NCBI GenBank assembly: GCA_015063905.1
Contig: SVTF01000004.1
Location: forward strand, 9,082 to 73,081
Length of the DNA: 64,000 nt
Direction of reading: 5' to 3'
Source: Oscillospiraceae bacterium
Lineage (GTDB): Bacteria > Bacillota > Clostridia > Oscillospirales > CAG-272
The position numbers and the translations under genes were made by a program. Shown here in pieces: positions 43,099 to 56,073 of the stretch (the stretch's first letter is position 1; every line of letters starts with the position of its first letter). The notes under the pieces are model-generated. The model was given only the letters and a program-made list of their open reading frames with translations, had not been told where the DNA came from and made no database searches.

Positions 43099-44943
43099 TT
43101 ATTTTGAAGCCTCTGCCGCGCGGCGAGCCTTCATCATTTCTTTCATACGAAGCTCTGTATTGAGTATCTTTTTACGGAGTCTTATTGACTTGGGTGTTAC
43201 CTCGATAAGCTCGTCGTCTGAAATGAACTCAATAGCCTCTTCAAGACTGAAGATCTTAGGTGGAGTAAGCAAAAGCTTTTCATCAGCTCCCGCGGAGCGA
43301 ATCGCCGTAAGGTGCTTTTCTTTGCAAGGATTGACCGCGATATCGTCATTCTTGGGATTCTCGCCAACGATCATTCCCTCATACACCTCAGTCTGAGGTC
43401 CGACAAACAGCTGACCGCGTTCCTGCGTATTATATAGTCCGTATCTCGTAGTAACTCCTGCCTCGCTGGCAACGAGCACGCCCGTAAATCTCATAATAAC
43501 ACCGCCGCGATAGGGCTGATAGCCATCAAAAAGCGTATTCAGCACGCCTTCTCCGTGTGTTGCCGACAAAAATTCGGAACGGTATCCGAAAAGACATCTT
43601 GAAGGAATACTGTACTCAATTCTCATTCGCTCGCCAATTGGAGTCATCTCGATAAGGTCGCCCTTTCTCTGTCCGAGCTTTTCTATTACTGTTCCAACGT
43701 ATTCGTTTGGAACGTCAAGCGTAACGCGCTCCATAGGCTCACATTTTTGCCCGTCTATTTCTTTAATAATGACCTTGGGATTTGAGCAGGTCATCTCATA
43801 GCCCTCGCGGCGCATATTCTCAAGAAGGATCGAGAGATGCATCTCTCCTCTTCCCGAAACTATAAACTCGTCGGTAGTATCTCCGTCGCGCACACGCAGG
43901 GAAACGTCCTTTAACAGCTCTCTGTACAGTCTTTCACGAAGCTGGCGAGAGGTTACAAACTTGCCCTCTTTACCTGCCAGGGGACTTGTGTTTACCGAGA
44001 ACGTCATCTCCACCGTGGGCTCGCTGACCTTTACAAACTCAAGCGGCTCAGGATTTGTTGTGCAGGTTATTGTATCTCCTATCGAGATGTCGCCCGCGCC
44101 CGAGAAACATATAATATCGCCCATCATAGCCGTCTCAACGGGTACACGGACAAGTCCGTCTATCTGATAGAGCGAAACTATCTTTGTTCTCTTTGGCTTT
44201 TCATCGGGCTTGTGGTAATTGCACACCAATACCTCCTGTCCAACGTTAACGCGTCCTCTCTCGATTCTTCCGATTCCTATTCTGCCCACGTAGTCATTAT
44301 AGTCAACGGAAGACACCAGAACCTGAAGATCGCCCTCCAGATCGCCAACAGGCGCAGGGATATAATCGAGTATAGTGTCAAACAGAGGCGTAAGGTCGGT
44401 TCCCTCCTCATCGGGAGTAAGGCTTGCGGTTCCCGAACGTCCCGAGCAATAGAGCATGGGAGAATCGAGCTGATCGTCGTTTGCGCCGAGATCAATAAGC
44501 AGCTCAAGTATCTCATCCTCAACCTCACCAAGTCTTGCGTCGGGCTTGTCTATTTTATTGATACAAACTATAACTCTGTGATTAAGCTCAAGCGCTCTCT
44601 TCAAAACGAAACGAGTCTGAGGCATAGGACCTTCAGCCGCGTCAACAAGCAGAATAACACCGTTAACCATTTTAAGCACGCGCTCCACCTCGCCGCCAAA
44701 ATCGGCGTGACCGGGAGTATCTACGATGTTGATCTTTACGTCGTTATAATGTACTGCAGTGTTTTTAGCAAGTATGGTAATTCCTCTTTCCTTTTCAATG
44801 GCATCCGAGTCCATTACTCTTGTCACAGTTTCCTGGTTTTCTCTGTATATGCCACCCTGCTTTAACAAACCGTCGACCAGCGTTGTTTTTCCGTGGTCAA
44901 CGTGAGCAATGATAGCCACGTTTCTTAAATCATTTCTTACCAT
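43099..44943 (-). CDS. typA: Translational GTPase TypA/BipA
   Basis: IRNVAIIAHVDHGKTTLVD G1 motif, DTPGHADF G3 motif, and an EF-G-like domain order; 614 aa. Confidence 0.95.
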   Translation of the reverse strand: MVRNDLRNVAIIAHVDHGKTTLVDGLLKQGGIYRENQETVTRVMDSDAIEKERGITILAKNTAVHYNDVKINIVDTPGHADFGGEVERVLKMVNGVILLVDAAEGPMPQTRFVLKRALELNHRVIVCINKIDKPDARLGEVEDEILELLIDLGANDDQLDSPMLYCSGRSGTASLTPDEEGTDLTPLFDTILDYIPAPVGDLEGDLQVLVSSVDYNDYVGRIGIGRIERGRVNVGQEVLVCNYHKPDEKPKRTKIVSLYQIDGLVRVPVETAMMGDIICFSGAGDISIGDTITCTTNPEPLEFVKVSEPTVEMTFSVNTSPLAGKEGKFVTSRQLRERLYRELLKDVSLRVRDGDTTDEFIVSGRGEMHLSILLENMRREGYEMTCSNPKVIIKEIDGQKCEPMERVTLDVPNEYVGTVIEKLGQRKGDLIEMTPIGERMRIEYSIPSRCLFGYRSEFLSATHGEGVLNTLFDGYQPYRGGVIMRFTGVLVASEAGVTTRYGLYNTQERGQLFVGPQTEVYEGMIVGENPKNDDIAVNPCKEKHLTAIRSAGADEKLLLTPPKIFSLEEAIEFISDDELIEVTPKSIRLRKKILNTELRMKEMMKARRAAEASK

Positions 44944-45123
44944 ACCTTCTCCTTTATTCTATCAACAAATTTACACGTTTTCTACCAAATTAATATTATA
45001 TCACATTTTTGTCCAATGTTAAATTGAAATTTATGACGATATTTATAAAAAATGTGACAGCAAATTATTTATTTTGACTAAAAATTGCGGTTTTGAGTTA
45101 CAAAACCCAAAACCGCTTTAAAA

Positions 45124-46059
45124 TTATTTCAAGAATCCGTTTATTATCTGTTCCTCTGCCTGCTTTTCGTCAAGACCGAGAGTCATGAGCTTGATCAACT
45201 GCTCACCCGCGATCTTTCCGATAGCCGCCTCGTGAATTAGTGACGCCTCTGTGTTATTCGCGATAATTTTCGGTATTGCCTCTACACACGCGTTGTCCAT
45301 GATTATTGCGTCGCACTCGGTGTGACCGGAGCAACGGTTGTTACCGACAACGTCCGAGATAAAGAGCTGACGCGAATTGTCCTTTGCCACAGAGCGTGAA
45401 ACTACGTGTGTTCCGCAATCCTCACCCTGAAGGTCGACCACGAATTCGGTTTCCGCAAACTGACTTCCGTGCGTCATTATCTTTTCGTGGACGATAAGCG
45501 TGGACTTGTCCTTCAACACAGCTTCGGTCTTACGTTTTGTGGAATCAACACCCTTGATCTGCGTTGTTTCCATTTCCATATACGCGCCCTCCTCAAGAAG
45601 AACGACCGTTGTGGGATTCATAACGTTCTTTCCGTTTCCGTCTCCGTCGCCATAATGCTTTTCAACGTACTTTATCCTTGCGTTTTTGCCTACAAAGAAG
45701 CTATGAATTCCGCTGTGCTCGCTATCCTGAACGCCGCAGTTGTGTATTCCGCAACCCGCGATTATGACAACGTCCGCGTCCTCGCCAATATGAAAATCAT
45801 TGTAAACAAGCTCGCGCAGTCCCGATTCCGCGATGATCACGGGAATATGCACGCTCTCGTTTTTTGTTCCGGCTTTGATATATATATCTATGCCGGGCTT
45901 GTCCGTTTTTTTCTCTATAACTATGTTTTCCGAGGAGTTCTTACCGTACATCTCACCGTCAACGCGGATGGAATACGCTCCCTCCGGAACCTCATGCAGT
46001 CCCGCGACCTCGCGGAGAAGATTCAACTGAAGCTCATCAAGCTTTTTCTTTTCAGCCAT
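45124..46059 (-). CDS. Short SufB/SufD-family Fe-S cluster scaffold protein
   Basis: 311 aa with a beta-helix-like SufBD core and a C-terminus ...EAAIGKIAGEQLIKLMTLGLDEKQAEEQIINGFL typical of SufB/D. TAATG junction with the upstream ATPase gene. Terminator at about 45080-45118. Confidence 0.75.
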   Translation of the reverse strand: MAEKKKLDELQLNLLREVAGLHEVPEGAYSIRVDGEMYGKNSSENIVIEKKTDKPGIDIYIKAGTKNESVHIPVIIAESGLRELVYNDFHIGEDADVVIIAGCGIHNCGVQDSEHSGIHSFFVGKNARIKYVEKHYGDGDGNGKNVMNPTTVVLLEEGAYMEMETTQIKGVDSTKRKTEAVLKDKSTLIVHEKIMTHGSQFAETEFVVDLQGEDCGTHVVSRSVAKDNSRQLFISDVVGNNRCSGHTECDAIIMDNACVEAIPKIIANNTEASLIHEAAIGKIAGEQLIKLMTLGLDEKQAEEQIINGFLK

Positions 46060-46790
46060 TATTCTTCACCTCCGCTCGCAAATCTGCAGCTCGCCTGCGC
46101 CGAGAGCAGCTCGGGCAATATTTCACTCTTGGAGCCGTATGCGGCAACCTTTCCGTCCGCTATAACCACGATCTTATCGGCAATATCAAGTATTCTCTCC
46201 TGGTGAGAAATAATAAGTATATTTCCGTGTGTTCTCTCATGCATCTTTTCAAACACCTTGATAAGATTGTTAAAGCTCCAGAGATCTATTCCCGCTTCGG
46301 GCTCGTCAAACACCGAGAACTTGGTGCCGCGCGCGTTTATCATGGCGATCTCGATTCTCTTAAGCTCTCCTCCCGAAAGAGATTCATTAACCTCTCGGTT
46401 TACGTATTCCTTGGCGCAAAGTCCAACCTCCGAGAGAAATTTGCACGCCTCCGCAACCGAGATCTTTTCGCCTGCGGCAAGAGAAATAAGGTCCTTTACC
46501 GTAATACCCTTAAATCTGACGGGCTGCTGAAAAGCAAAGCTTATTCCCGCTCTCGATCTTTCGGTTATATTCATATCGGTGATATCCTCGCCATCGAGAT
46601 ATATCCTTCCGCTATCGGGTGTAACTATACCCGCAATCACCTTGGCAAGCGTGGATTTTCCCGATCCGTTAGGACCTGTTATCGCAACAAACCCATCATC
46701 TATCGTAAGCGATACGTCGTCAAGAATTCGGCGCATCTTATTTGTTTTTGGGTCTGTAACCGTATACGTTACATTCTTTAATTCTAACAT
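46059..46790 (-). CDS. sufC: SufC-like Fe-S cluster assembly ABC ATPase
   Basis: Walker A GPNGSGKST, signature LSGGELKR, Walker B FSVFDEPEAGID, and H-loop ISHQ. Confidence 0.8.
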   Translation of the reverse strand: MLELKNVTYTVTDPKTNKMRRILDDVSLTIDDGFVAITGPNGSGKSTLAKVIAGIVTPDSGRIYLDGEDITDMNITERSRAGISFAFQQPVRFKGITVKDLISLAAGEKISVAEACKFLSEVGLCAKEYVNREVNESLSGGELKRIEIAMINARGTKFSVFDEPEAGIDLWSFNNLIKVFEKMHERTHGNILIISHQERILDIADKIVVIADGKVAAYGSKSEILPELLSAQASCRFASGGEE

Positions 46791-46922
46791 ATTTCTCCTT
46801 TCTTTGAGACTGTATATTAACTCAAATAAACTAATATAGGGAAGACTTTGCAGACACTGCTCAATCTTCCCTATTATTCTACCATAAACTACTAATTAAA
46901 TCAATATATATTTTACAAAAAT

Positions 46923-47927
46923 TTAATGTCTACCAAAATGGTATTTTTTGTACAAATTATCATAAAGAGTAGGAATTGTGTGCTGATGGTCTCCGCAGAA
47001 ATGCCATCCAATTCCCCCTCTGCTTGTAGGACGGTTTACTATGTTCTTTCTCGGGCGGTAATAGTAGTTTGGATCCTCATATCCTATCTTTGAGCGATAA
47101 TCTCCAAGATCGATAAGATCAAAATTTGCCGTTGTTATATGGAAATTTTCATAGCCTAAATTTCTCGCGATGGACAAAGCCTTCAAAAACACCTCAGCGC
47201 CTATTACCGCTGAACCGAAGTTCAGGAAAACGCCCCCATCGAGATCGCATACCGACGCGCACATTTTTTTGAAATCCACTCCCGAACATTTTCCGATCAC
47301 GCTCATATCGCACGTGGGATGCTGATGAATTATATCCGTTCCAAGAGCTATATGATAGGTTGCGGGAACGTTATTGACGTATGCTTGATAAAGAACGCAG
47401 TCTTCACGGTAAGGAAATTTTTCGGGGTTATCGAATATGTATTTCCCCAGCGATTCACCATAACCGAGCCCCTCTGCCGCTCCAAGCCTCAAAGCCTCGT
47501 TCATCCATGCACCCGTCTGCTCCCACATTCCAAATGAACCGTCCTCGATGGCGGTTGGCACATCCTCGCTCGTTCCGCCGAGATATGCAAGCTCAAAATC
47601 GTGTATGCTGCCCGCTCCGTTTGACGCGATATGGGTTATAACTCCGTCCTTAATAAATTGGATAATATAGCGGGACAGGCGATTTTTTATAACGTGCGCT
47701 CCCATAGACCATATTACCGGACGACCGTTTTTCCTCGCGTTGATTATTCTATCAACAAGCTCGTCAAAATCGGGATGCTCGAACCTTTGATGAGTGGTCT
47801 CTCCCGGAGTCATAAGATTATCTATTCTGACAAGATTGTGTCTGATATTCGCATCGTACGTTCTTATGTTATCAAATATAAGCTCTCGGCTTTTGCTCTC
47901 TCCCTTAAATACACCTCTTTTATCCAT
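46923..47927 (-). CDS. Hypothetical protein; N-terminal half reminiscent of a DHS-like (deoxyhypusine-synthase/sirtuin-type) Rossmann fold
   Basis: 334-aa ORF with GGAGGA 7 nt before the ATG, 3 nt after the HAD gene. The segment GRPVIWSMGAHVIKNRL...GVITHIASNGAGSIHDFELA resembles the DHS-family pattern. The assignment is weak. Confidence 0.6.
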   Translation of the reverse strand: MDKRGVFKGESKSRELIFDNIRTYDANIRHNLVRIDNLMTPGETTHQRFEHPDFDELVDRIINARKNGRPVIWSMGAHVIKNRLSRYIIQFIKDGVITHIASNGAGSIHDFELAYLGGTSEDVPTAIEDGSFGMWEQTGAWMNEALRLGAAEGLGYGESLGKYIFDNPEKFPYREDCVLYQAYVNNVPATYHIALGTDIIHQHPTCDMSVIGKCSGVDFKKMCASVCDLDGGVFLNFGSAVIGAEVFLKALSIARNLGYENFHITTANFDLIDLGDYRSKIGYEDPNYYYRPRKNIVNRPTSRGGIGWHFCGDHQHTIPTLYDNLYKKYHFGRH

Positions 47928-47930
47928 GAT

Positions 47931-48701
47931 TCAATCCTCCATCCAAGCCAAAATCTCATCAACTTTATCAAAACAGTCAACAAGCGCGTGCGCTCCCGCG
48001 TTTGTCAGGCGGTTTACCTTTACATCGTCTATTCCGCAAAGGTCGCGCTCTTTACCGCATATGCCAAGCGTGCATGCGCCCGCGGCTTTTCCAAGCCTTA
48101 TCTCCACGGGCCCGTCGCCCACGACGAGTAATCCTCCCTGCCCCTGTGAGATAAGTCGATTTAAGGTCGCCTCCTTGGAGCAGTCCTCGGAGTGAGGCTT
48201 GGCGCCCGCTATCTCGTCGAAATACGCATCTATTCCGAGTATTGCCGCCTCATGCTTTACATCTGCCTCATCAGTTCCGCTTGCGGCAAATATTCTGACG
48301 CCTCTCTCCTTTAACGCCTCTAAAAATTGCTTAGAGCCGCGCATTATATATTTATCACTGTTTCCCGACACTGTGTCTGCGCATCTTTTCTCAACGTTGA
48401 TCATAAGGCGTCGGTTATATTCTGCTTTATATTCCCACGGATCAAGGCAAGCTTTTCCTTCTTTTTTGACTCTCTCCGCCAGCCACTTCATCTGCAATAT
48501 GGTCTGAATACCCGTTGATGCGGCGATATAATCACGAACCTCTTTTACATTTTCCTCGGTGTAATCCTCACCAAAGATATATTCAAGCATCAAAGGCTCC
48601 ATAACACTTTCCCAGCCACAGCGCAGAGTGGAGATGGTTCCGTCAAAATCAAAAACCGCGCAGTTAATTTTCTTTTTTTCATGCCTCTCTAATACTATCA
48701 T
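47931..48701 (-). CDS. HAD-superfamily hydrolase (phosphatase/phosphomutase-like)
   Basis: Motif I AVFDFDGTIS and C-terminal VVGDGPVE (motif IV). The ATG lies 23 nt inside the ROK gene, with GGAGGA 7 nt upstream. Confidence 0.75.
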   Translation of the reverse strand: MIVLERHEKKKINCAVFDFDGTISTLRCGWESVMEPLMLEYIFGEDYTEENVKEVRDYIAASTGIQTILQMKWLAERVKKEGKACLDPWEYKAEYNRRLMINVEKRCADTVSGNSDKYIMRGSKQFLEALKERGVRIFAASGTDEADVKHEAAILGIDAYFDEIAGAKPHSEDCSKEATLNRLISQGQGGLLVVGDGPVEIRLGKAAGACTLGICGKERDLCGIDDVKVNRLTNAGAHALVDCFDKVDEILAWMED

Positions 48702-49851
48702 TTATCTGTCCTCCAAGTATATAGCCTTCAATTACAGTTTCCGCCGCCGCAAACGCGCGCGCATCTTCATCAAGAGCAGAACAAACAACGTGTACACTGT
48801 GTCTATCTCTCGAAATACCGGTCATGTCTATTCTATTCTTAATCGCTTCTTTGATTATGAAAGACGATTCTCCAAGCTCTCCTCCAAGAACGATATAGTC
48901 GGGCTCAAAAATATTTACCGCGTTGACACAGGCAACTCCAAGCATTTCGCCACCGCAACGCAACGCTTCCGCCGCGCAACTGTCGCCCTCCTTTGCCAAT
49001 TTAACAAGATCACTTATATTTTCGCACTCACAGCCCGCATCTTTTGCGTTTTTCAGAATAGACGGTATAGAAGCATACAGCTCGGCACATCCAACGTTTC
49101 CACATCTACACGTATCTCCGTCAAATTTTACCGTTGTATGTCCTATTTCGCATCCCATTCCGCCATATCCGCAGAAAATCTTGCCATCCTTTATAATGCC
49201 GCATCCGAGTCCGTGATCGGCGAGAATGAACATAAGGTCTCCATCTATTCCGCTTACGTTTCTTTCCGCAACCGCCAGAGCGTTTGTGTCCTTTTGAAGC
49301 GTGACGCGCAGGCTCAACCGTTGTTCAACGGCTTCTTTTATTTTGAAATTATGGAACATATCGAGTCCGGGCGGATTGAGTATTGTACCGCTTTGAGTAT
49401 CCACGGGACCCGGACAGCAAACGCCTATACCCAATACGCGTCTATGCGCAAATAAATTTTGCAATTCTGTTTTTATGATCTCGCATATCTCATCCACTGT
49501 TTGCTCCGCACTGTAACAAAGCTCTACTCTGCTCTTGAAAACAGGTCTTGAAGTAAAATCAGAAAACAAGATTCCGCAACCTTCTCTTGAAACGTCTACT
49601 CCAATCGCAATATAAGCATCGGGGTTGAGTTTAAGCATGGTGGGTCTGCGTCCCGAATCGGATTTTGCGGCATGCCCCTCAAGGACGAGAGTATTCTTTA
49701 TCAAATCATCTACGATAATTGTTACCGCCGCTCGAGAAAGACCCGTAACACGTGCTACATCCGCGCGTGAGCATTCTCCCTTGCGTATCAAGTCCAAAAT
49801 GCGAAGCTTATTGGTTTCCTTCATATAGAGGGAATTATTAACCCGTGTCAT
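48679..49851 (-). CDS. ROK family transcriptional regulator (wHTH + ROK sugar-kinase fold)
   Basis: N-terminal wHTH RILDLIRKGECSRADVARVTGLSRAAV, and ROK zinc motif GHTTV...CRCGNVGCAE. Start taken as MTRVNN (49851), 1 nt after the kinase stop. Confidence 0.8.
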   Translation of the reverse strand: MTRVNNSLYMKETNKLRILDLIRKGECSRADVARVTGLSRAAVTIIVDDLIKNTLVLEGHAAKSDSGRRPTMLKLNPDAYIAIGVDVSREGCGILFSDFTSRPVFKSRVELCYSAEQTVDEICEIIKTELQNLFAHRRVLGIGVCCPGPVDTQSGTILNPPGLDMFHNFKIKEAVEQRLSLRVTLQKDTNALAVAERNVSGIDGDLMFILADHGLGCGIIKDGKIFCGYGGMGCEIGHTTVKFDGDTCRCGNVGCAELYASIPSILKNAKDAGCECENISDLVKLAKEGDSCAAEALRCGGEMLGVACVNAVNIFEPDYIVLGGELGESSFIIKEAIKNRIDMTGISRDRHSVHVVCSALDEDARAFAAAETVIEGYILGGQINDSIREA

Positions 49852-49852
49852 A

Positions 49853-50887
49853 TCATTCTTCCCCACACATCTCAAATAATGCTTTCAGCTCATCCACGTT
49901 CGCGCTTCCCGTTGTATTTAGCTTTTTCACGCATATGGCAGATGCCATTGAAGCGATCACGCCTGCCTCCTCATCCGAAGCGCCCGCAGCCAAGGCGAGC
50001 GAAAACGCAGGAAGAAAGCAGTCACCCGCGCCAACCGTGTCAACGGGCGGCTCTACCTTGATTGCGTTGATCCTCGTCTGTGAGCCTTCTCTACAGACAA
50101 GGCATCCCCTATCACCAAGAGTAAGACAAACATCCGAGCCCGTTTTCTTCATCAAAAGCCGCGCGGCTGAAGCAATATCTTCTTCAATCGCGCTTTTGTC
50201 AAGCGGCGCGCTGCCTGTGGCTCTCGCGCACTCTATCTCGTTTGGCTTTAAAACACAGTTGCTATACAGTCCTATTCTTGATCTACTGTCTACAACTACC
50301 AGCTTTCCGCCCTTAGCCAAGTCATTTATTCTTTCTCTTACTCTATCTGTAATACATCCGTTTTCAAATTGATCGCTTACACAGATCACATCGGCGTCAC
50401 GGCAGTATTTATCAAGATTTTGTAAGATCCTATCCTCTATCTCCTTGCCGACGGCATCGTAGCTTTCAAAGTCAAGTCTGGGATCCTCAACCTCAATTCC
50501 AAGATATCCCTTTCTCATAGGCTTGCAATAGGCATTTGTTATCTTTCCGCTTGATACAACGATGCCATCGGTATTCATTCCTTTTTCCTCAAATACCTTC
50601 TTTAGACAAATGCCTCTCCAATCGTCTCCGATAACACCTATAGTCACTGCGTTATCATTGAGTGTTGACAAATTGACCGCCGCGTTACCGCCCGCACCAG
50701 CGGACATTCTTTCCTCAACTATAGGTAATGGAAAATGCGGAGTCTCGCGCGACAGTTGACTCCTTGTCATATCTCCCACCCAATATATGTCAATACACAT
50801 ATCTCCAATAATCACCGCATTGACTTGCCTCATTTTTGCAAGAATCTCACACAACCTATCTTTAGAAAGTCCTTGTATGCGCTTCAT
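49853..50887 (-). CDS. PfkB-family carbohydrate kinase, RfaE-domain-I-like (heptose-7-phosphate-kinase-like)
   Basis: VIIGDMCIDIYW.GD..R...E.P.P.....R..AGGAGNAAVN pattern as in HldE/RfaE kinase domains, plus C-terminal DTVGAGD. Start trimmed to MKRIQ (GGAG + 7 nt). Confidence 0.75.
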   Translation of the reverse strand: MKRIQGLSKDRLCEILAKMRQVNAVIIGDMCIDIYWVGDMTRSQLSRETPHFPLPIVEERMSAGAGGNAAVNLSTLNDNAVTIGVIGDDWRGICLKKVFEEKGMNTDGIVVSSGKITNAYCKPMRKGYLGIEVEDPRLDFESYDAVGKEIEDRILQNLDKYCRDADVICVSDQFENGCITDRVRERINDLAKGGKLVVVDSRSRIGLYSNCVLKPNEIECARATGSAPLDKSAIEEDIASAARLLMKKTGSDVCLTLGDRGCLVCREGSQTRINAIKVEPPVDTVGAGDCFLPAFSLALAAGASDEEAGVIASMASAICVKKLNTTGSANVDELKALFEMCGEE

Positions 50888-50989
50888 ATAAATTCTCCGT
50901 TTCTTTGGCATTTTCGCCCTTATTTAGCATAATTATAGCATGTCGATATATGCTTGTCAAGCACTTTGTTAAATCATTTAACAATTATT

Positions 50990-51031
50990 TTAAAATTTTG
51001 AGAAAGACATCAAGAAGGACATCTTTCTCAA
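50990..51031 (-). terminator. Terminator after trxB
   Basis: TTGAGAAAGA / TCTTTCTCAA 10-bp stem with a 14-nt loop, followed on the minus strand by AATTTTAAAAT. Confidence 0.6.
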
Positions 51032-51038
51032 AGCTTTT

Positions 51039-51947
51039 TTATTTATCAAGATATCTGCACGCGGCAAGCGCGGCAACAGCTCCGTCTCCGCACGCAGTAG
51101 TGATCTGACGTATCTTTTTGGTTCTGCAATCTCCCGCGGTAAACAATCCCTCTGTATCGGTAAGGCAGTCCTCATCGGACACTATATATCCCCTATCGGA
51201 CAGAGTAACCGCGTTTTTAAAGGGTTCATTTTCGGGGACCTGACCTATCGCTACAAACATTCCGTCAAGGTCGAGTCTTATTTTTTCCCCGCTCTTTTCA
51301 TTCTTGATAACAATACCGCCAAAGGTATCCTCTCCAAGTATCTCTTCAACAACACAGCCAAAGATAAACTCCACGTTTTCTCTTTCACGAAGTATCGCCG
51401 CGAGCTTTTCCTCTCCCGTCAGAAAATCAAGGTTCTGGACAACGTACACCTTCTCGCATCCGTCCGAAAGCATTATTGCCTCCTGGAGCGCTGAATTACC
51501 TCCGCCGATGACCGCAACGGTCTTGTCGGCGTAAAACGCTCCGTCACATACCGCGCAAAAGGATATTCCCTCTCCAACGAATCGCTCCTCCTTGGACAAG
51601 CCAAGCATACGGTGTCTTGATCCCGTGGCTATGATGACGGAATGAGCCATAAACTCTCCTTCCTCTGTTGTCACTACAAATATGCCGTTTCCTTCTTTAC
51701 GAACACCCGTTACCTCCTGGAGATCTATTTCCGCGCCCAATGTTACCGCGTGATCTACCAGCTTTTCCGCAAGCTCATTTCCGCTTATCTGACCAAATCC
51801 GGGATAGTTCTCTATTTTGGGTGAAAACGTCATCTGACCGCCAAACATTCCCTTTTCAAGCACAAGGACGCTTTTGTCCGCTCGGCGAGCATATATCGCG
51901 GCAGTCAGTCCCGCGGGCCCTGCTCCTACGATGATTATATCATACAT
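51039..51947 (-). CDS. trxB: Thioredoxin-disulfide reductase
   Basis: FAD motif IIIVGAGPAGLTAA, redox-active CAVCDG, and NADPH motif VIGGGNSA. Confidence 0.9.
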   Translation of the reverse strand: MYDIIIVGAGPAGLTAAIYARRADKSVLVLEKGMFGGQMTFSPKIENYPGFGQISGNELAEKLVDHAVTLGAEIDLQEVTGVRKEGNGIFVVTTEEGEFMAHSVIIATGSRHRMLGLSKEERFVGEGISFCAVCDGAFYADKTVAVIGGGNSALQEAIMLSDGCEKVYVVQNLDFLTGEEKLAAILRERENVEFIFGCVVEEILGEDTFGGIVIKNEKSGEKIRLDLDGMFVAIGQVPENEPFKNAVTLSDRGYIVSDEDCLTDTEGLFTAGDCRTKKIRQITTACGDGAVAALAACRYLDK

Positions 51948-52072
51948 AATAATTACTTCCTTTCACAAAGTAAGACTTAGGCAATCCGCTCATTTCCTTG
52001 AAGAAAACAGTTTGAATTCCGCGTCTGTTATTTCTTCCCTTCCTTGAACGGATTGCCATGGAATAATTAATG

Positions 52073-54481
52073 TTAAGCGTTAGCTACAGAATCGATATAC
52101 TTTCTGATGTTGGAAAGATTTACCGCCTTGGCAACTTCTTTTCCGTCTTCAACTACCACAAGCGTGGGAGCCTGCTTTATGCCGAATCTCTCAACGAGAT
52201 CAGCGTTATCCTCTGCATATATCTTTTCAAAGGATATTCCCGCCTTTTCAAGGAATATCACAGCCATCTTGCAGTTGGGGCAGCTCTTTGTAGCGAAGAG
52301 CAATACACCGTTAAGGTTATCGCACTCGCAGCACTCCTCCTTTACAGGAGCCGCATTTACTGTTCTCACGCCGTCAACACCGATATTGATCTCGGGATGA
52401 AGCTCATTGGATCTGTCGATATTATACGTACGTCTTTCCTTGAACTCCTGGCTCTTTCCGTCGTTCCAAGCCTGAACGGGACGGTAATATCCCGTGATAC
52501 GGCTATATACCTCTGTGGTCTTGCCGCACTTAGGACACGTATATACCTCTCCGTTAATGTAACCGTGATCGGTACATACGCTATACGTGGGAGACATGGT
52601 GTAGTAAGGAAGCTTGTAATTCTCCGCGATCTTGCGGACAAGGTTAGCCGCGCTCTTCCACGTGGGCAACTTTTCGCCAAGGAAGGCGTGGAATACTGTT
52701 CCCGAAGTATAAAGCGTCTGGAGCTCGTCCTGAATATCAAGAGCGTCAAAGATATCCTCGGTATAGCCTACGGGCAAGTGAGACGAGTTCGTATAGTAAG
52801 GAGCCGCGTCATTATCAGTTGCGGTAATGATATCAGGCCATCTCTTTCTATCGTGCTTTGCAAAGCGGTAAGAGGTGGACTCTGCGGGTGTCGCCTCAAG
52901 GTTGTAGAGGTCTCCGTACATTTCCTGATAGTCGGAAAGTCTTTCTCTCATATGGTTGAGAACGTCCTTTGCGAACTCCTGGGTCTCCTTATGAGTCATA
53001 TCCGCGCGCAACCACTTTGCGTTAAGACCAACCTCGTTCATACCGACAAGACCGATAGTTGAGAAGTGGTTATTGAACGTGCCAAGGTATCTCTTTGTAT
53101 AAGGATACAAGCCCTCGTCAAGAAGCTTTGTGATAACTGTTCTCTTTGTCTTAAGCGAGCGTGCGGATATATCCATAAGCTTGTCAAGTCTCTTGTAGAA
53201 CTCATCCTCTGTTTCGGAGAGATATGCGAGTCTTGGCATATTGATGGTTACAACACCGACAGATCCCGTGGACTCACCCGAGCCAAAGAAGCCTCCCGAT
53301 TTTTTACGGAGCTCACGAAGGTCAAGACGGAGACGGCAGCACATCGAACGAACGTCCGAGGGCTCCATATCAGAGTTGATATAGTTAGAGAAATAAGGCG
53401 TACCGTACTTTGCGGTCATCTCAAAGAGAAGCGTGTTGTTCTCGGTCTCAGACCAGTCAAAGTCGCGAGTGATGGAATATGTGGGAATAGGATACTGGAA
53501 TCCACGGCCGTTTGCGTCACCTTCGATCATGATCTCGATGAACGCCTTATTGACCATATCCATTTCCTTCTTACAATCCTTATACTTAAAGTCCATCTCC
53601 TTGCCGCCAACAATACAGTTGAGCTCTGCAAGGTCATTAGGAACTGTCCAGTCAAGAGTGATGTTGGTAAACGGAGACTGTGTACCCCAACGAGAAGGAG
53701 TATTTACGCCATATATAAAGGACTGTATGCACTGCTTTACTTCTTTATATGAAAGGTTATCCACCTTAACGAAGGGAGCAAGATACGTATCAAAGGAAGA
53801 GAATGCCTGCGCGCCTGCCCACTCATTCTGCATGATTCCAAGAAAGTTTACCATCTGGTTGCACAGCGTGGAAAGGTGTCCTGCGGGAGAGGATGTGATC
53901 TTGCCCGTTACGCCGCCAAGTCCCTCTTGAATGAGCTGCTTTAATGACCAACCCGCGCAATAACCTGTAAGCATGGAAAGGTCATGAATATGGATGTCCG
54001 CGTTTCTGTGGGCATTACCTATCTCGTCATCATATATCTCGGAGAGCCAATAGTTTGCGGTAATAGCTCCGGAGTTGGAAAGGATAAGTCCTCCGACAGA
54101 ATAGGTAACGGTGGAGTTCTCTTTTACTCTCCAGTCATTCATCTTGAGATACTTATCAACGGTCTCCTTATAGTCAAGCGCAGTGTTTCCAAGATTACGG
54201 AGCTTTTCTCTCTGACGGCGGTAAAGGATGTATGCCTTTGCAACGTCAGCATAGCCAGCCTGAACGAGAACTGACTCAACACTATCCTGAATGTCCTCAA
54301 CGGCAACAACACCGTTCTCTATTTTCTTTGAAAAATCAGCGGTTACCTTAAGCGCCAAAAAATCAATTATGTCCTGATTAAAATCTTTTTCCTGTGCTTC
54401 GAACGCTTTCTTTATAGCATCCGAGATCTTTACGATACTGAAATCAACAATTTTTCCGTCTCTCTTTTGTACGCTGTACAT
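52073..54481 (-). CDS. nrdD: Anaerobic ribonucleoside-triphosphate reductase (class III) with C-terminal thioredoxin-fold extension
   Basis: ATP-cone N-terminus (VQKRDGKIVDF), class III core, zinc site CPKCG, and glycyl-radical motif SRITGYYRPVQAWNDGKSQEFKERR. A further 114 aa (52076-52417) contain LLFATKSCPNCKMAVIFLEKAGISFEKI...APTLVV. Confidence 0.9.
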   Translation of the reverse strand: MYSVQKRDGKIVDFSIVKISDAIKKAFEAQEKDFNQDIIDFLALKVTADFSKKIENGVVAVEDIQDSVESVLVQAGYADVAKAYILYRRQREKLRNLGNTALDYKETVDKYLKMNDWRVKENSTVTYSVGGLILSNSGAITANYWLSEIYDDEIGNAHRNADIHIHDLSMLTGYCAGWSLKQLIQEGLGGVTGKITSSPAGHLSTLCNQMVNFLGIMQNEWAGAQAFSSFDTYLAPFVKVDNLSYKEVKQCIQSFIYGVNTPSRWGTQSPFTNITLDWTVPNDLAELNCIVGGKEMDFKYKDCKKEMDMVNKAFIEIMIEGDANGRGFQYPIPTYSITRDFDWSETENNTLLFEMTAKYGTPYFSNYINSDMEPSDVRSMCCRLRLDLRELRKKSGGFFGSGESTGSVGVVTINMPRLAYLSETEDEFYKRLDKLMDISARSLKTKRTVITKLLDEGLYPYTKRYLGTFNNHFSTIGLVGMNEVGLNAKWLRADMTHKETQEFAKDVLNHMRERLSDYQEMYGDLYNLEATPAESTSYRFAKHDRKRWPDIITATDNDAAPYYTNSSHLPVGYTEDIFDALDIQDELQTLYTSGTVFHAFLGEKLPTWKSAANLVRKIAENYKLPYYTMSPTYSVCTDHGYINGEVYTCPKCGKTTEVYSRITGYYRPVQAWNDGKSQEFKERRTYNIDRSNELHPEINIGVDGVRTVNAAPVKEECCECDNLNGVLLFATKSCPNCKMAVIFLEKAGISFEKIYAEDNADLVERFGIKQAPTLVVVEDGKEVAKAVNLSNIRKYIDSVANA

Positions 54482-54622
54482 CGTCTTCTCCTTTTCCTGT
54501 CATAAAAATTATATAATTATAAGTCGGCAAAAAACACCCCGCGGGCTATAAATAAACTGGGGAGCATATTTGCCAATGCGCATAGTAAAACGGCGCGGAC
54601 TGCAATCCGCGCCGCATATTGG

Positions 54623-54651
54623 ATTATACTATATTTAGTGTTTTTTGTCAA
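54623..54651 (-). promoter_or_regulatory. Sigma-A promoter of nrdD
   Basis: On the minus strand: TTGACA (54651-54646), 17 nt, TATAAT (54628-54623). Confidence 0.65.
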
Positions 54652-54673
54652 GGGCAAATACTAAATATTGTGT
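54626..54673 (-). promoter_or_regulatory. Two tandem NrdR boxes
   Basis: On the minus strand, ACACAATATTTAGTAT (54673-54658) and ACACTAAATATAGTAT (54641-54626). Each matches 14/16 positions of the acaCwAtATaTwgTgt consensus. Their starts are 32 bp apart, and the proximal box overlaps the -10. Confidence 0.7.
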
Positions 54674-54703
54674 TTTTTTACAAAAATCATCACAATGCAC
54701 ATT

Positions 54704-55408
54704 TTATAATCCGCGCAATTGTGCATTTGGCACAAAAGGTAGAATTTTGTCGAGAAGGCTCTTCATTTGATCCTCGTCATACGCCTTTATTCCCTCTCCG
54801 ATAAGGTGTCCCGAGTCTTTAAATTGCTGCAAATAAAATTTCTCTTGTCCCGCAAGCCATTTGCCGATCTCAACTATATCTTCTTCGGTATGGAAGGTCT
54901 GCGACACGGTGGTTCTGAACTCAAAATCCACCCGATCACTCATAAGAAAGCCTATGCTTTCCTCTATCGGCGCAAGATCGTAGTCATCGCCAAGTCCCAC
55001 TGTTTTGCCGTACTTTTCCCTACAGTTTTTGATATCCATCGCAACGTAATCCAAAAGCCCGTCGTTTACAAGGTGCTTAAGCACGTCGGGGCGTGTTCCG
55101 TTAGTGTCAAGCTTGATCCTGTACCCAAGACTCCTTGCTTGCGCTATAAAGTCATACAGTCCCGGCATAAGAGTGGGTTCTCCGCCCGTTATAGCGATAC
55201 CGTCCAGAATGCCGACACGCTTTTTTAGAAAGGCAAGTATCTCCTCATTCTTATACATCTTCTGCGACTGAGCCTGCGTGACCAACAACGCGTTATGGCA
55301 GAACGGGCATCGCATATTGCAGCCCTTAGTAAAGAGCGTGCATGCCACACAACCTGGAAAATCAAGCAGGGTCAGCTTTTGAAGCCCCGCGAAAATCTCT
55401 TCACTCAT
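54704..55408 (-). CDS. nrdG: Anaerobic RNR activating protein (radical SAM)
   Basis: LLDFPG...LFTKGCNMRCPFCHN CxxxCxxC cluster and GGEPTL motif. Confidence 0.9.
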   Translation of the reverse strand: MSEEIFAGLQKLTLLDFPGCVACTLFTKGCNMRCPFCHNALLVTQAQSQKMYKNEEILAFLKKRVGILDGIAITGGEPTLMPGLYDFIAQARSLGYRIKLDTNGTRPDVLKHLVNDGLLDYVAMDIKNCREKYGKTVGLGDDYDLAPIEESIGFLMSDRVDFEFRTTVSQTFHTEEDIVEIGKWLAGQEKFYLQQFKDSGHLIGEGIKAYDEDQMKSLLDKILPFVPNAQLRGL

Positions 55409-55426
55409 CCTATTTCTATCTCCTAC

Positions 55427-56026
55427 TCAGGCATATCTTCTTTGTATCGCCAGAACCTTGCCAAGAATAATGACCTCTTCTACGATTATGGGTTCCATCG
55501 CGGCGTTTTCGGGTTGAAGGCGGTAATGACCTTCCTCGCGGAAAAACGTTTTGACAGTTGCCTCGTTATCAACCAGCGCGACAACGATCTCTCCGTTCTC
55601 GGCATAGCAGGTCTTTTCCGCAATGACAATATCTCCGTCAAGAATGCCTATGTCCATCATGCTATCACCCTTTATCCTGAGCGCAAACAGCTCCTCCGAC
55701 GGCTTTATCTCGGGAATATATCCTATGTATCCGTCAAAGCTTTGCTCTGCAAGGATAGGCTTTCCCGCAGCCACAGTACCCAATACGGGCACGGCGCGAA
55801 CAGAAGGCGCGTCCTCAACCAATGTAATAGCGCGGCTCTTGCCGTCCTCCTTAACTAAATAGCCAAACATTTCAAGTCTATTAAGATACATGTGGACCGT
55901 AGACGTGCTTTTATAATCAAGATCGCGGCACACATCACGGACGGAGGGAGCGTAGCCATTCTCCGCCTTAAATCTCTTAACGTAATCAAGCACCTTTTGT
56001 TCCTTTGGTTTAAGCTTTTGAGCCAT
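55427..56026 (-). CDS. lexA: LexA repressor
   Basis: wHTH N-terminus (GYAPSVRDVCRDL), Ala-Gly cleavage site (VAAGKP), catalytic GDSM, and Lys in the VVALV..EATVK region. Confidence 0.9.
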   Translation of the reverse strand: MAQKLKPKEQKVLDYVKRFKAENGYAPSVRDVCRDLDYKSTSTVHMYLNRLEMFGYLVKEDGKSRAITLVEDAPSVRAVPVLGTVAAGKPILAEQSFDGYIGYIPEIKPSEELFALRIKGDSMMDIGILDGDIVIAEKTCYAENGEIVVALVDNEATVKTFFREEGHYRLQPENAAMEPIIVEEVIILGKVLAIQRRYA

Positions 56027-56051
56027 TTCAGTTCTCCTATTGATAAAAATA

Positions 56052-56064: not shown

Positions 56065-56073
56065 GTTTTTTTG

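What the first reader, a model, noticed from the sequence alone, without database searches (positions are those of the whole stretch)
46923..50887. Translationally coupled four-gene operon: RfaE-like kinase, ROK regulator, HAD hydrolase and an unknown DHS-like protein
Seen in sequence: four minus-strand genes have junctions of +1 nt, -23 nt (overlap) and +3 nt, each with a well-spaced GGAG/GGAGGA. The block is bounded by terminators on both sides. The first gene resembles the heptose-7-phosphate-kinase domain of HldE/RfaE rather than ribokinase or fructokinase. The ROK protein has a full wHTH and an intact zinc motif, and it is embedded in the middle of the operon. The last gene (334 aa) has no motif I can assign beyond a DHS-like Rossmann pattern. 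No isomerase (GmhA), nucleotidyltransferase or glycosyltransferase accompanies them, so this is not the standard ADP/GDP-heptose pathway. Inference: it may be a dedicated route for phosphorylating, dephosphorylating or rearranging an unusual sugar or polyol, with the unknown protein as the chemistry-defining enzyme.
Basis: partly seen in the sequence, partly recalled or inferred. Interest (0 to 1): 0.6.

Follow-up and report, generated by a model that had tools for sequence, protein, structure and literature searches.

The report
Heptose-type sugar-phosphate operon, unknown enzyme
A real, self-regulated four-gene operon in a gut Clostridia genome encodes a heptose-type sugar-phosphate kinase, a phosphatase and a widespread enzyme of unknown function that accompanies heptose-pathway genes across bacteria and archaea.

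Summary
Four minus-strand genes (kinase 344 aa, ROK regulator 390 aa, HAD 256 aa, unknown 334 aa) have junctions of +1, -23 and +3 nt. They share one consensus promoter and lie between two strong hairpins. Public gene calls on identical contigs give the same lengths.

The 334-aa protein belongs to NCBIfam NF052581, "GSU2086 family protein" (385 bits, cut-off 250). This family is named but uncharacterised.

The claim that the cluster stands apart from heptose metabolism is not supported. The family is fused or adjacent to GmhA-like isomerase, HldA/HldE kinase, RfaE-II adenylyltransferase, HAD or DUF89 phosphatase and GT9 heptosyltransferase across phyla. In 41 dereplicated loci a PfkB kinase lies within 5 kb in 36, HAD in 31, SIS in 21 and ROK in 18.

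My best reading is a heptose-type kinase / cofactor-dependent isomerase-or-epimerase / phosphatase module under an autoregulating ROK repressor, for which I found a conserved 19-bp palindromic operator. The exact reaction is inferred. This window has no GmhA or nucleotidyltransferase.

Speculative: in two lineages nickel-pincer cofactor genes (LarB/C/E) sit beside the module.

The parts
50997..51032 (-). Terminator hairpin of the upstream trxB gene. Upstream boundary of the operon.
   Evidence: 15-bp stem, dG -18.4 kcal/mol, z -5.8 against shuffles, followed by AAAAUUUU. Sequence.
50966..50984 (.). Probable ROK operator: perfect 19-bp palindrome TTGTTAAAT-N-ATTTAACAA, 5 nt upstream of the -35.
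   Evidence: Unique in the window within 3 mismatches. The same motif lies upstream of the first gene of the cluster in L002-L016 and L021. It also occurs in L178, where the gene order differs. Function as an operator is inferred.
50932..50960 (-). Sigma-70-type promoter TTGACA-17 nt-TATAAT with TG extension.
   Evidence: 12 of 12 consensus matches. Equivalent TTGACA...TATAAT in related loci.
49853..50887 (-). HldA / RfaE-domain-I-like PfkB sugar-phosphate kinase, 344 aa (alternative start 50911).
   Evidence: PF00294 at 98 bits. TIGR02198 rfaE_dom_I at 154.9 bits (cut-off 345, not reached), with ribokinase next at 88.5. The only PDB sequence hit below 1e-10 is B. cenocepacia HldA 4e84. Public gene call of 344 aa.
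48679..49851 (-). ROK-family transcriptional regulator, 390 aa, starting 1 nt after the kinase stop.
   Evidence: PF00480 at 159.7 bits. N-terminal HTH_24/MarR_2 hits are weak (20-21 bits). Full-length alignment to NagC/Mlc models is below cut-off. CRCGNVGC zinc motif in the translation. Public gene call of 390 aa.
47931..48701 (-). Capped HAD-superfamily phosphatase (possibly a phosphomutase), 256 aa. Overlaps the ROK gene by 23 nt.
   Evidence: PF00702 at 50.7 bits and PF13419 at 42.5 bits. There is no match to GmhB/HAD-IIIA models, and the nearest PDB sequences are phosphoglycolate phosphatase and phosphonatase, weakly. DFDGT motif I in the translation. Fused to the next gene's family in P0114, P0122, P0123, P0139, P0197, L070 and L072.
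46923..47927 (-). GSU2086-family protein, 334 aa. DHS / LOR-SDH-OCD fold; an uncharacterised enzyme.
   Evidence: NF052581 at 385.1 bits (cut-off 250); no Pfam hit. AlphaFold2 pLDDT 91.2, pTM 0.91. Foldseek top hits are DHS 7cmc (E 2.5e-9), ArgZ/AgrE and 3c2q. A family profile matches ArgZ/AgrE/3c2q at E 2e-6 to 2e-5 over the G..vi..G / nGA..iHD(F/I)E region. About 57 invariant residues are shared across both context types.
46836..46874 (-). Hairpin downstream of the last gene. Probable terminator and downstream boundary.
   Evidence: 12+4-bp interrupted stem, MFE -25.3 kcal/mol for the 91-nt stretch, z -4.4. The U-tract is weak (UAUAUUAGUUUAUUU).

Best explanation
The operon is a stand-alone version of a widely conserved sugar-phosphate module with three enzymes. 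An HldA-like kinase phosphorylates the anomeric position of a heptose-type (manno-configured) sugar phosphate. The GSU2086-family protein has the deoxyhypusine-synthase / ornithine-cyclodeaminase fold, whose characterised members all hold an NAD-type dinucleotide and work by transient oxidation. I infer that it performs a redox-neutral isomerisation or epimerisation of the phosphorylated sugar. The capped HAD enzyme then removes one phosphate. The net result is an ATP-driven conversion of one heptose-type sugar phosphate into another.

The embedded ROK protein represses the single promoter through a palindromic operator until a sugar or sugar-phosphate effector appears. In this genome the module most likely serves conversion or salvage of a heptose-type sugar, not LPS synthesis.

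Shown: the gene structure, the family assignments, the fold, the conserved linkage to kinase and HAD, the family-wide linkage to heptose-pathway parts, and conservation of the operator motif.

Inferred: the substrate, the order of steps, the epimerase/isomerase chemistry, the cofactor, and the role of the operator.
For: Gene anatomy and signals.

Kinase: closest to the heptose-7-phosphate kinase family by profile and by solved structures.

The 334-aa protein: NF052581 above cut-off, a confident model, and a DHS/ArgZ/AgrE/3c2q fold with a shared HD(F/I)E motif.

Linkage: in 41 dereplicated loci with at least 3 kb on both sides, PfkB lies within 5 kb in 36, HAD in 31, GmhA-like SIS in 21 and ROK in 18. 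Gene order varies between lineages.

Natural fusions of the family:
- with SIS_2 (very common),
- with RfaE-II (P0164 at 199 bits and P0225 at 203 bits, above the 181.5 cut-off),
- with HAD, PfkB, and DUF89+RfaE-II.

Biosynthetic-type clusters:
- GmhA-HldE (357 bits, cut-off 345)-G,
- G-HldA (375 bits)-GmhB-KdsB,
- GT9 heptosyltransferase overlapping G,
- HldE-G-SIS on a Solidesulfovibrio plasmid,
- gmhA-GSU2086-hldE in Geobacter, all three with similar Tn-seq defects (PMC5585712).
No HldD equivalog was found in any of these clusters.

The same invariant His/Asp/Glu/Lys/Arg set occurs in both context types, which argues for a single chemistry.

Catabolic-looking relatives carry a sugar ABC transporter, a ROK kinase and LacI/GntR/ROK regulators.

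The operator motif is conserved together with the ROK regulator in two different gene orders.
Against: - No GmhA-like isomerase, nucleotidyltransferase, ROK kinase or transporter is in the operon or anywhere in the 64-kb window. The entry substrate in this organism is therefore unknown.
- The kinase scores far below the HldA/HldE equivalog cut-off (154.9 against 345). The associated SIS proteins are also below the GmhA cut-offs. The sugar could be a hexose of manno configuration or something else.
- GH38 alpha-mannosidase neighbours occur in 6 of 41 loci, which points to mannose-type sugars.
- All characterised members of the fold oxidise amines, not sugar hydroxyls.
- The Geobacter Tn-seq phenotype may be a polar effect on hldE.
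- No biochemical datum exists for any family member, as far as I found.
Confidence: 0.45

Rival explanations
1. Biosynthetic reading. The operon makes an activated heptose (heptose-1-phosphate, then an NDP-heptose) for a cell-surface glycan. GmhA and the nucleotidyltransferase are encoded elsewhere in the genome. The GSU2086-family protein is a non-SDR substitute for the epimerase HldD, or another tailoring enzyme.
For: Bona fide HldE/HldA, GmhA, GmhB, GT9 and glycan genes lie next to family members. RfaE-II fusions and DUF89-RfaE-II-G triple fusions suggest action next to the adenylyltransferase. No HldD is present in those clusters.
Against: The window operon sits among housekeeping genes, with no glycosyltransferase, flippase or nucleotidyltransferase nearby. 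A sugar-responsive ROK repressor and, in relatives, ABC transporters and ROK kinases are typical of utilisation loci. The HAD is not of the GmhB type.
Confidence: 0.25
2. Cofactor variant, which can combine with either reading above. The GSU2086-family protein uses a nickel-pincer cofactor (NPN or its adenine dinucleotide form) instead of NAD+ for hydride shuttling. A variant of the related LOR/SDH-type ornithine cyclodeaminase was recently reported to do this.
For: LarE-LarB-LarC (320/309/229 bits, all above cut-off) directly follow G-PfkB in L081/L082, with no LarA within 8 kb. A LarC fragment lies about 90 nt upstream of a G+SIS fusion in L137. There is a weak hit to NF052526, 'putative NPN-dependent ornithine cyclodeaminase'. 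The literature reports structurally unrelated NAD-type folds using nickel-pincer cofactors, and cites an NPAD-dependent OCD (PMC13524815). The family has many invariant His residues and an invariant Lys.
Against: Only 2 of 93 dereplicated lineages show Lar genes nearby. None occurs in the 64-kb window or in the other roughly 170 loci. The NF052526 hit is 17.6 bits against a cut-off of 440. AgrE, from the same fold, was crystallised with NAD+ (6lrg). Genome-wide co-occurrence could not be tested.
Confidence: 0.15
3. Pentose-phosphate variant. The kinase phosphorylates sedoheptulose-7-phosphate at C1 and the HAD is a sedoheptulose-1,7-bisphosphatase. This would be a regulated SBP shunt, as in transaldolase-less clostridia, with the third protein as an accessory.
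For: PfkB-family enzymes include ketose-phosphate 1-kinases, and the kinase also matches 1-phosphofructokinase models at 58-72 bits. There is no isomerase in the operon. The SBP-pathway background is from my own knowledge, not tested here.
Against: The kinase is clearly closer to anomeric heptose-7-P kinases than to PfkB/1-PFK (154.9 against 72 bits; the PDB hit is HldA only). A kinase plus a phosphatase alone would form a futile cycle. This reading does not explain the GmhA, RfaE-II and GT9 linkage of the family.
Confidence: 0.07
4. The 334-aa protein carries out amine chemistry like its structural relatives (deoxyhypusine or homospermidine synthase, ornithine cyclodeaminase), for example on an amino sugar or polyamine. 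On this reading its link to the sugar genes is indirect or regulatory.
For: All characterised members of the fold oxidise C-N bonds with bound NAD+ (hits; chemistry from established knowledge). UniRef labels one homologue 'Deoxyhypusine synthase'.
Against: The window protein has no hit to the DS Pfam model. Identity to DHS and OCD structures is 12-16% with TM about 0.5. The pervasive fusions and adjacency are to sugar-phosphate enzymes, not to amine or polyamine genes.
Confidence: 0.05

Closest known systems
ADP-L-glycero-beta-D-manno-heptose pathway (GmhA, HldE or HldA+HldC, GmhB, HldD)
   Same: The kinase is closest to HldA / RfaE domain I. A kinase-plus-HAD-phosphatase logic is present. The unknown protein's family is fused or adjacent to GmhA-like SIS, bona fide HldE, RfaE-II, GmhB and GT9 heptosyltransferase in other lineages.
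   Different: The window has no GmhA, no adenylyltransferase and no HldD. The kinase scores under half the equivalog cut-off. The HAD is a capped type unrelated to GmhB (HAD-IIIA). There is an extra DHS-fold enzyme that the E. coli pathway does not contain, and control by a ROK repressor.
GSU2086 of Geobacter sulfurreducens (NCBIfam NF052581, 'GSU2086 family protein')
   Same: Same family by the curated model (385 bits against a cut-off of 250). In both cases the gene sits next to a heptose-type kinase gene.
   Different: In Geobacter it lies between gmhA and a bifunctional hldE, in an LPS context. Here it sits with a monofunctional paralogous kinase, a capped HAD and a ROK regulator in a Gram-positive-type genome. 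No member of the family has a demonstrated function.
Deoxyhypusine synthase and LOR/SDH-type ornithine cyclodeaminase (AgrE/ArgZ C-terminal domain, M. maripaludis 3c2q; NPAD-dependent OCD variant)
   Same: Overall fold (Foldseek E 2.5e-9 to 1e-7, probability 1.0). Glycine-rich loops after the first two strands. The motif nGA..iHD(F/I)E..G.T(S) is shared with the OCD group. The likely mode of action is a bound dinucleotide cofactor with transient hydride transfer.
   Different: Identity is 12-16% and TM about 0.5. The window protein gets no DS hit and no ArgZ-like hit above cut-off. The genomic partners are sugar-phosphate enzymes, not arginine or polyamine genes. The catalytic residues of DHS (the Lys that forms the imine) were not identified here.
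ROK-family repressors (NagC, Mlc, XylR type)
   Same: N-terminal wHTH plus a ROK sugar-binding domain with a CxCGxxGC zinc site. Full-length alignment to NagC/Mlc models. A palindromic AT-rich operator next to the promoter of its own operon.
   Different: Scores are far below the NagC/Mlc equivalog cut-offs (167 against 650). The gene is embedded as the second gene of the enzyme operon. The effector is unknown.

Membership tests
GSU2086 family (NCBIfam NF052581) | Whole-protein score at or above the curated cut-off (250 bits), with full-length coverage of the 301-position model | tested here: met
   385.1 bits, E 2.6e-115, residues 18-323 on model positions 4-300.
GSU2086 family (NCBIfam NF052581) | Genomic association with heptose-pathway-type genes, as at the name-giving locus (gmhA-GSU2086-hldE) | tested here: met
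   An HldA-like kinase is in the same operon. PfkB lies within 5 kb in 36 of 41 dereplicated loci. gmhA itself is absent from this window.
Deoxyhypusine synthase (Pfam PF01916 DS) | Match to the DS model at gathering score (27 bits) | tested here: not met
   The window protein has no Pfam family at E <= 0.01. Some homologues give sub-threshold DS hits of 19-26 bits.
Deoxyhypusine synthase (Pfam PF01916 DS) | DHS fold | tested here: met
   Foldseek top hit is 7cmc, E 2.5e-9, TM 0.54-0.59 over about 310 columns.
Deoxyhypusine synthase (Pfam PF01916 DS) | Catalytic lysine forming the enzyme-imine intermediate, and the spermidine-binding acidic residues | not testable with these tools
   Model coordinates and residue-level structural alignments are not returned. 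The sequence alignment to DHS covers only about 60 residues.
LOR/SDH-type ornithine cyclodeaminase (NF052526 ODC_var; PF21570 ArgZ-like_C_2nd) | Score at or above the curated cut-off | tested here: not met
   NF052526 scores 17.6 bits against a cut-off of 440, over residues 51-117 only. PF21570 is not hit by the window protein. A family profile matches ArgZ/AgrE/3c2q only over the first about 100 positions.
ADP-heptose biosynthesis operon (GmhA/HldE/GmhB/HldD) | Heptose-7-phosphate kinase meeting the TIGR02198 equivalog-domain cut-off (345 bits) | tested here: not met
   154.9 bits. It is the best-scoring model but below cut-off. Kinases next to distant family members do meet it (357, 375 and 397 bits).
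ADP-heptose biosynthesis operon (GmhA/HldE/GmhB/HldD) | Sedoheptulose-7-phosphate isomerase GmhA present | tested here: not met
   There is no GmhA-like SIS ORF in the 64-kb window by tblastn or by an HMM of 23 module SIS proteins. The rest of the genome is not available.
ADP-heptose biosynthesis operon (GmhA/HldE/GmhB/HldD) | Heptose-1-phosphate adenylyltransferase (RfaE domain II) present | tested here: not met
   No match in the window.
ADP-heptose biosynthesis operon (GmhA/HldE/GmhB/HldD) | GmhB-type (HAD-IIIA) 1,7-bisphosphate phosphatase | tested here: not met
   The window HAD does not hit the GmhB models (TIGR00213, NF006506). Its only weak hits are to HAD-IIIC, phosphonatase and PpaX.
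ROK-family transcriptional repressor | N-terminal wHTH, ROK domain and Cys-rich zinc motif | tested here: met
   PF00480 at 159.7 bits. HTH_24 (20.5 bits) and MarR_2 (21.3 bits) at residues 22-64 are just below gathering score. CRCGNVGC is present. Alignment to NagC covers residues 18-376.
ROK-family transcriptional repressor | Binds an operator and responds to a sugar effector | not testable with these tools
   There is only indirect support: a 19-bp palindrome conserved together with the regulator.
Nickel-pincer-cofactor-dependent enzymes | Co-occurrence with LarB, LarC and LarE | tested here: inconclusive
   Lar genes are adjacent in 2 of 93 dereplicated lineages (L081/L082, L137). They are absent from the window and from all other fetched loci. 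Whole-genome co-occurrence was not testable.
Nickel-pincer-cofactor-dependent enzymes | Bound Ni-pincer cofactor (nickel-coordinating His, with or without a tethering Lys) | not testable with these tools
   Invariant His78/109/192/203/314 and Lys249 exist, but their geometry could not be inspected.

The most novel reading that the evidence does not exclude
The GSU2086 family is a previously unrecognised heptose (bis)phosphate or ADP-heptose epimerase built on the DHS/OCD fold. It would replace the SDR enzyme HldD in many LPS producers. In gut Clostridia, Chloroflexota and Bathyarchaeia it would allow salvage of LPS-derived L-glycero-D-manno-heptose by a kinase - epimerase - 1-phosphatase - GmhA route into the pentose-phosphate pathway. 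At least some members would use a nickel-pincer cofactor instead of NAD+.
Probability: 0.12. Interest if true: 0.8.

Novelty: new variant of a known kind. Interest (0 to 1): 0.55.

Why it matters
The heptose pathway is considered fully mapped. It supplies LPS core sugar and the innate-immune agonist ADP-heptose. This work points to a fifth, very widespread and highly conserved enzyme family travelling with that pathway's parts in bacteria and archaea. The representative library holds 2,084 clusters at E <= 0.001, and one gut cluster alone has more than 2,000 member sequences. The family has no assigned reaction.

Assigning the reaction could have three consequences:
- It could reveal a new way to make or recycle heptoses, including by abundant Gram-positive-type gut anaerobes that have no LPS.
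- It could explain LPS producers that lack HldD.
- It could add sugar chemistry to a fold so far known only for amine oxidation.

If the nickel-pincer lead held, it would also add a family to the short list of non-LarA users of that cofactor.

Tried and rejected
**Searches that gave nothing**
- Sequence search of the 334-aa protein against all PDB chains: no hit even at E 10. Only a family profile reaches ArgZ/AgrE/3c2q.
- Pfam: no family for the 334-aa protein.
- Rfam on the operon region: no riboswitch or leader RNA.
- Phage collection: no homologue.
- Literature searches for GSU2086, DHS-like + heptose, DHS + gmhA, heptose + Lar, AgrE and Alr4995. They returned only the Geobacter Tn-seq table and the nickel-pincer AKR paper. 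The Desguin 2025 NPAD-OCD paper is not held, and the AKR paper has no held supplements.
- A metagenome scan with the diverse alignment A1 failed for lack of a conserved stretch. It was repeated with A2.

**Ideas considered and dropped**
- The family substitutes for GmhB. It co-occurs with HAD or GmhB in 31 of 41 loci and is fused to HAD.
- It substitutes for GmhA. It is very often fused to a GmhA-like SIS domain.
- It substitutes for RfaE-II. It is fused to RfaE-II.
- The promoter-spacer inverted repeat AGCAT...ATGCT is the operator. It is not conserved in relatives, whereas the upstream TTGTTAAAT palindrome is.
- A fructosamine (FrlB/FrlD-like) pathway. The associated SIS proteins are GmhA-type SIS_2, not FrlB/GlmS-type, and the FrlD score is only 44.6 bits.

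**Lar genes in this genome**
- None are in the 64-kb window.

Full report
**1. The observation**

Four ORFs lie head to tail on the minus strand.
- The PfkB kinase ends at 49853. An in-frame ATG at 50911 is an alternative.
- The ROK gene starts at ATG 49851, one base after the kinase stop. The ORF lister reports the first possible start (TTG 49875), but homologue N-termini (MNKPNNSSLMKAQN... in L008) align with the ATG.
- The ROK stop (48679) lies 23 nt inside the HAD gene (ATG 48701, GGAGGA 7 nt upstream).
- The 334-aa gene starts at 47927, 3 nt after the HAD stop, again with GGAGGA 7 nt upstream.
- Identical proteins occur on public JGI metagenome contigs. Independent gene calls there give 344, 390, 256 and 334 aa.

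A 12/12 consensus promoter (TTGACA-17-TATAAT, 50960..50932) precedes the kinase. Just upstream is a 15-bp hairpin that terminates trxB (50997..51032, z -5.8). After the last gene there is a second stable hairpin (46836..46874, z -4.4). No Rfam family matches the region.

The description is correct. The only overstatement is that the ROK start has an imperfect GGGGAAG rather than GGAG. Tight co-directional genes are normal for bacteria, so this is a real operon rather than a statistical oddity.

**2. The four proteins**

- **Kinase.** PfkB family (98 bits). Its best curated model is the heptose-7-phosphate kinase domain of HldE (TIGR02198, 154.9 bits). Ribokinase follows at 88.5 bits and 1-PFK at 72, but the equivalog cut-off is 345. 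The only solved protein below E 1e-10 is Burkholderia HldA (4e84). "HldA-like paralogue" is the fair label.
- **ROK protein.** It has the ROK domain (159.7 bits), a weak N-terminal wHTH and the CxCGxxGC zinc motif. It aligns over its full length to NagC/Mlc, well below their cut-offs.
- **HAD.** A capped type with the DFDGT motif. It is unrelated to GmhB (HAD-IIIA). Its nearest solved sequences are phosphoglycolate phosphatase and phosphonatase, at E about 1e-4.
- **334-aa protein.** It has no Pfam family, but it matches NCBIfam NF052581, "GSU2086 family protein", at 385 bits (cut-off 250).

**3. Fold of the 334-aa protein**

No PDB sequence matches it directly. An AlphaFold2 model built on 52 homologues is confident (pLDDT 91.2, pTM 0.91).

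Foldseek against the PDB gives these top hits, all at probability 1.0, TM about 0.5 and 12-16% identity:
- deoxyhypusine synthase (7cmc, E 2.5e-9, TM 0.54-0.59),
- the C-terminal ornithine-cyclodeaminase domain of ArgZ/AgrE (6juy; 6lrg with NAD+ and ornithine),
- the M. maripaludis LOR/SDH protein 3c2q.

A profile of 37 diverse family members reaches ArgZ, AgrE and 3c2q by sequence (E 2e-6 to 2e-5). The aligned segments are the first strand-loop (G-a-h-v-i) and nGA..iHD(F/I)E..G.T(S).

Characterised members of this fold keep a dinucleotide bound and work by transient hydride abstraction (established knowledge).

The family has an unusually rich invariant set: His78, Asn103, His109, Asp110, Glu112, Thr119, Glu121, His192, Asp198, His203, Asp218, Asn236, Glu245, Lys249, Asn256, Asp270, Arg291, Arg299 and His314. 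This set is identical in all context types examined, which argues for an enzyme with a single chemistry.

**4. What travels with it**

The family is large. More than 7,800 of 8,000 scored candidates matched in the 90% database. The 50% representative library holds 2,084 clusters at E <= 0.001.

I fetched 183 loci from genomes, metagenomes, plasmids and exact-match look-ups. After dereplicating at 90% identity and requiring at least 3 kb on both sides, 41 loci remained. Within 5 kb of the family member these loci contain:

| Neighbour | Loci (of 41) |
|---|---|
| PfkB kinase | 36 |
| HAD | 31 |
| GmhA-like SIS protein | 21 |
| ROK protein | 18 |
| GH38 alpha-mannosidase | 6 |
| RfaE domain II | 5 |
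| GmhB | 2 |
| Lar genes | 1 |

Gene order varies between lineages:
- PfkB-ROK-HAD-G in the window's closest relatives;
- G-PfkB(-HAD) in Acutalibacteraceae and an abundant human-gut species;
- HAD-G-PfkB-ROK next to a glycogen operon;
- ROK-G-PfkB-HAD-ROKkinase-SIS-ABC transporter in Thermosediminibacter;
- [G+SIS]-PfkB-HAD in Anaerolineae and Bathyarchaeia.

The linkage therefore does not come from shared ancestry of one arrangement. It is also passed for the ROK regulator in three arrangements.

**5. The heptose connection**

Natural fusions join the family to the following partners:
- SIS_2, in dozens of roughly 557-aa proteins that some sources annotate as "phosphoheptose isomerase";
- RfaE domain II (P0164 at 199 bits and P0225 at 203 bits, above the 181.5 cut-off);
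- HAD;
- PfkB;
- DUF89 phosphatase plus RfaE-II;
- itself, as tandem duplicates.

In more distant members (42-58% identity) the neighbours are bona fide heptose genes:
- GmhA-HldE (357 bits, cut-off 345)-G inside a GT2/ABC-2 glycan cluster (L139);
- G-HldA (375 bits)-GmhB-KdsB (L169);
- a GT9 heptosyltransferase overlapping G (L158, L159);
- G-HldE followed by gmd and fcl (L167);
- HldE-like-G-SIS on a Solidesulfovibrio plasmid.

In Geobacter sulfurreducens the name-giving gene lies between hldE and gmhA. All three show similar transposon fitness defects on electrodes (PMC5585712). A polar effect cannot be excluded.

None of these clusters contains an HldD equivalog. The family is thus a fifth, unassigned component that keeps company with the four canonical activities of heptose activation.

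**6. What is missing here, and the two context classes**

The 64-kb window contains no GmhA-like SIS, no RfaE-II and no Lar gene. This was tested by tblastn and by HMM/phmmer without filters. The operon sits between trxB/nrdD and sufCB/typA.

Module kinases of the window type score about 155 bits on the HldA model (window and L173). Their SIS partners score 120-150 bits against GmhA cut-offs of 209-276. They are paralogues of the LPS enzymes.

Their neighbourhoods often look like sugar-utilisation loci. They include RbsB-like ABC transporters, HTH-less ROK kinases, LacI/GntR/ROK regulators, Gfo/Idh/MocA oxidoreductases, DeoC and GH38/GH4 glycosidases. There are thus two context classes, biosynthetic and utilisation-like, sharing one catalytic core.

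**7. Proposed mechanism (inferred)**

One scheme uses every recurrent part. A heptose-type sugar phosphate is phosphorylated at the anomeric carbon by the HldA-like kinase. The GSU2086-family enzyme, with a bound hydride-shuttling cofactor, then inverts or shifts a stereocentre of the bisphosphate (or, in HldE-type clusters, of the 1-phosphate or ADP-sugar). The capped HAD removes one phosphate.
- In utilisation-type loci, the ROK kinase and the GmhA-like isomerase would connect an imported heptose to sedoheptulose-7-phosphate.
- In biosynthetic loci, the same enzyme could stand in for HldD.
- In the window only the three-enzyme core is present, under a ROK repressor.

I rate the core statement (heptose-type module, cofactor-dependent isomerase/epimerase, salvage or conversion role) at 0.45. 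A purely biosynthetic role is rated at 0.25. The SBP-shunt and amine-chemistry alternatives are rated low.

**8. Regulation**

A perfect palindrome, TTGTTAAAT-N-ATTTAACAA (50966..50984), lies 5 nt upstream of the -35. It is unique in the window within three mismatches.

The motif recurs at the same place in 14 related loci. It also recurs before the first gene of a rearranged cluster (L178, TTGTTAAATGAGTTGACAA, overlapping the -35). Thermosediminibacter has a different repeated motif.

The simplest reading is autorepression by the embedded ROK protein. This has not been tested.

**9. The nickel-pincer lead**

In L081/L082 the G-PfkB pair is followed directly by LarE, LarB and LarC, all above their equivalog cut-offs, with no LarA within 8 kb. 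In L137 a LarC fragment ends about 90 nt before a G+SIS fusion. The window protein has a weak hit to NCBIfam's "putative NPN-dependent ornithine cyclodeaminase".

A 2026 paper shows that NAD-type folds other than LarA can use the nickel-pincer cofactor. It cites an NPAD-dependent ornithine cyclodeaminase (PMC13524815). The primary OCD paper is not held.

Against this, only 2 of 93 dereplicated lineages show the adjacency, and the window has no lar genes. I treat it as a 0.15 possibility that needs a genome-wide co-occurrence test and a cofactor analysis.

**10. Novelty and verdict**

The operon is real, and its unknown protein is correctly flagged as the interesting part. It is not an orphan. 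It belongs to a named but uncharacterised family already noticed next to hldE/gmhA in Geobacter.

This analysis adds:
- the confident DHS/OCD fold;
- the breadth of fusions and neighbourhoods tying the family to every step of heptose activation;
- the two context classes;
- the conserved operator;
- the Lar adjacency.

It is a new variant of a known kind of system (a heptose-type sugar-phosphate module) containing an enzyme whose reaction is unknown. Interest is moderate (0.55). A specialist would want the reaction assigned, but nothing here yet contradicts current understanding.

Noticed in passing
window 50966..50984: Perfect 19-bp palindrome TTGTTAAATcATTTAACAA just upstream of the operon's -35. 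It is conserved with the ROK regulator in related loci, including one with a different gene order. Probable ROK operator, and the only such site in the 64 kb.
   Followed up: partly
L081 10197-12889 (and identical L082): LarE, LarB and a split LarC (nickel-pincer cofactor synthesis), all above NCBIfam cut-offs, directly follow the G-PfkB pair on the same strand. No LarA lies within 8 kb.
   Followed up: partly
L137 3-542: The C-terminal part of a LarC gene ends about 90 nt upstream of a GSU2086-SIS fusion gene, at the edge of a metagenome contig. This is a second, independent Lar adjacency.
   Followed up: partly
L174 7380-9977; L091 1-1982; P0127: A GH38 alpha-mannosidase lies immediately upstream of the module in an archaeal-type locus and near it in Clostridia (6 of 41 dereplicated loci). 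One database protein (P0127) even joins the family to GH38 domains. This may hint at a manno-configured substrate or be a mis-assembly.
   Followed up: no
L167 4641-7286: One long ORF combines HldE (both domains above cut-off) with a full GDP-mannose 4,6-dehydratase, followed by GDP-fucose synthase. It is either a genuine three-domain fusion or a frameshift or read-through in the metagenome contig.
   Followed up: no
P0121 (679 aa), P0146 (693 aa): Tandem duplications of the GSU2086-family domain within one polypeptide. This is compatible with an obligate dimer, as in deoxyhypusine synthase.
   Followed up: no
alignment A3, window residues about 273-289: A roughly 17-residue insertion (LG-DYRSKIGYEDPNYYY) is present in the window-type proteins and some distant members. 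It is absent from those next to bona fide HldA or GT9 (L158, L167, L169).
   Followed up: no
L175 (Solidesulfovibrio carbinolicus plasmid pDCAR1, NZ_CP026539.1) 8432-16037: HldE-like (509 aa)-G-SIS is followed by three radical SAM genes, inside a pseudaminic/neuraminic-acid-type glycan cluster on a 133-kb plasmid.
   Followed up: no
L090 about 4770-4800 and 6045-6070: In Thermosediminibacter a different repeated motif, TTAGTAAGAAAnTnTAAC, occurs both before the ROK regulator and between it and the G gene. This suggests a lineage-specific operator.
   Followed up: no
window 43099..46790 and 51039..58095: The flanks are housekeeping genes: typA/bipA, a sufC-sufB/D pair, trxB, nrdD with its radical-SAM activase, lexA and GTP-type PEPCK. 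The same order occurs on public contigs L181/L182. No sugar transporter or glycan gene is adjacent.
   Followed up: partly
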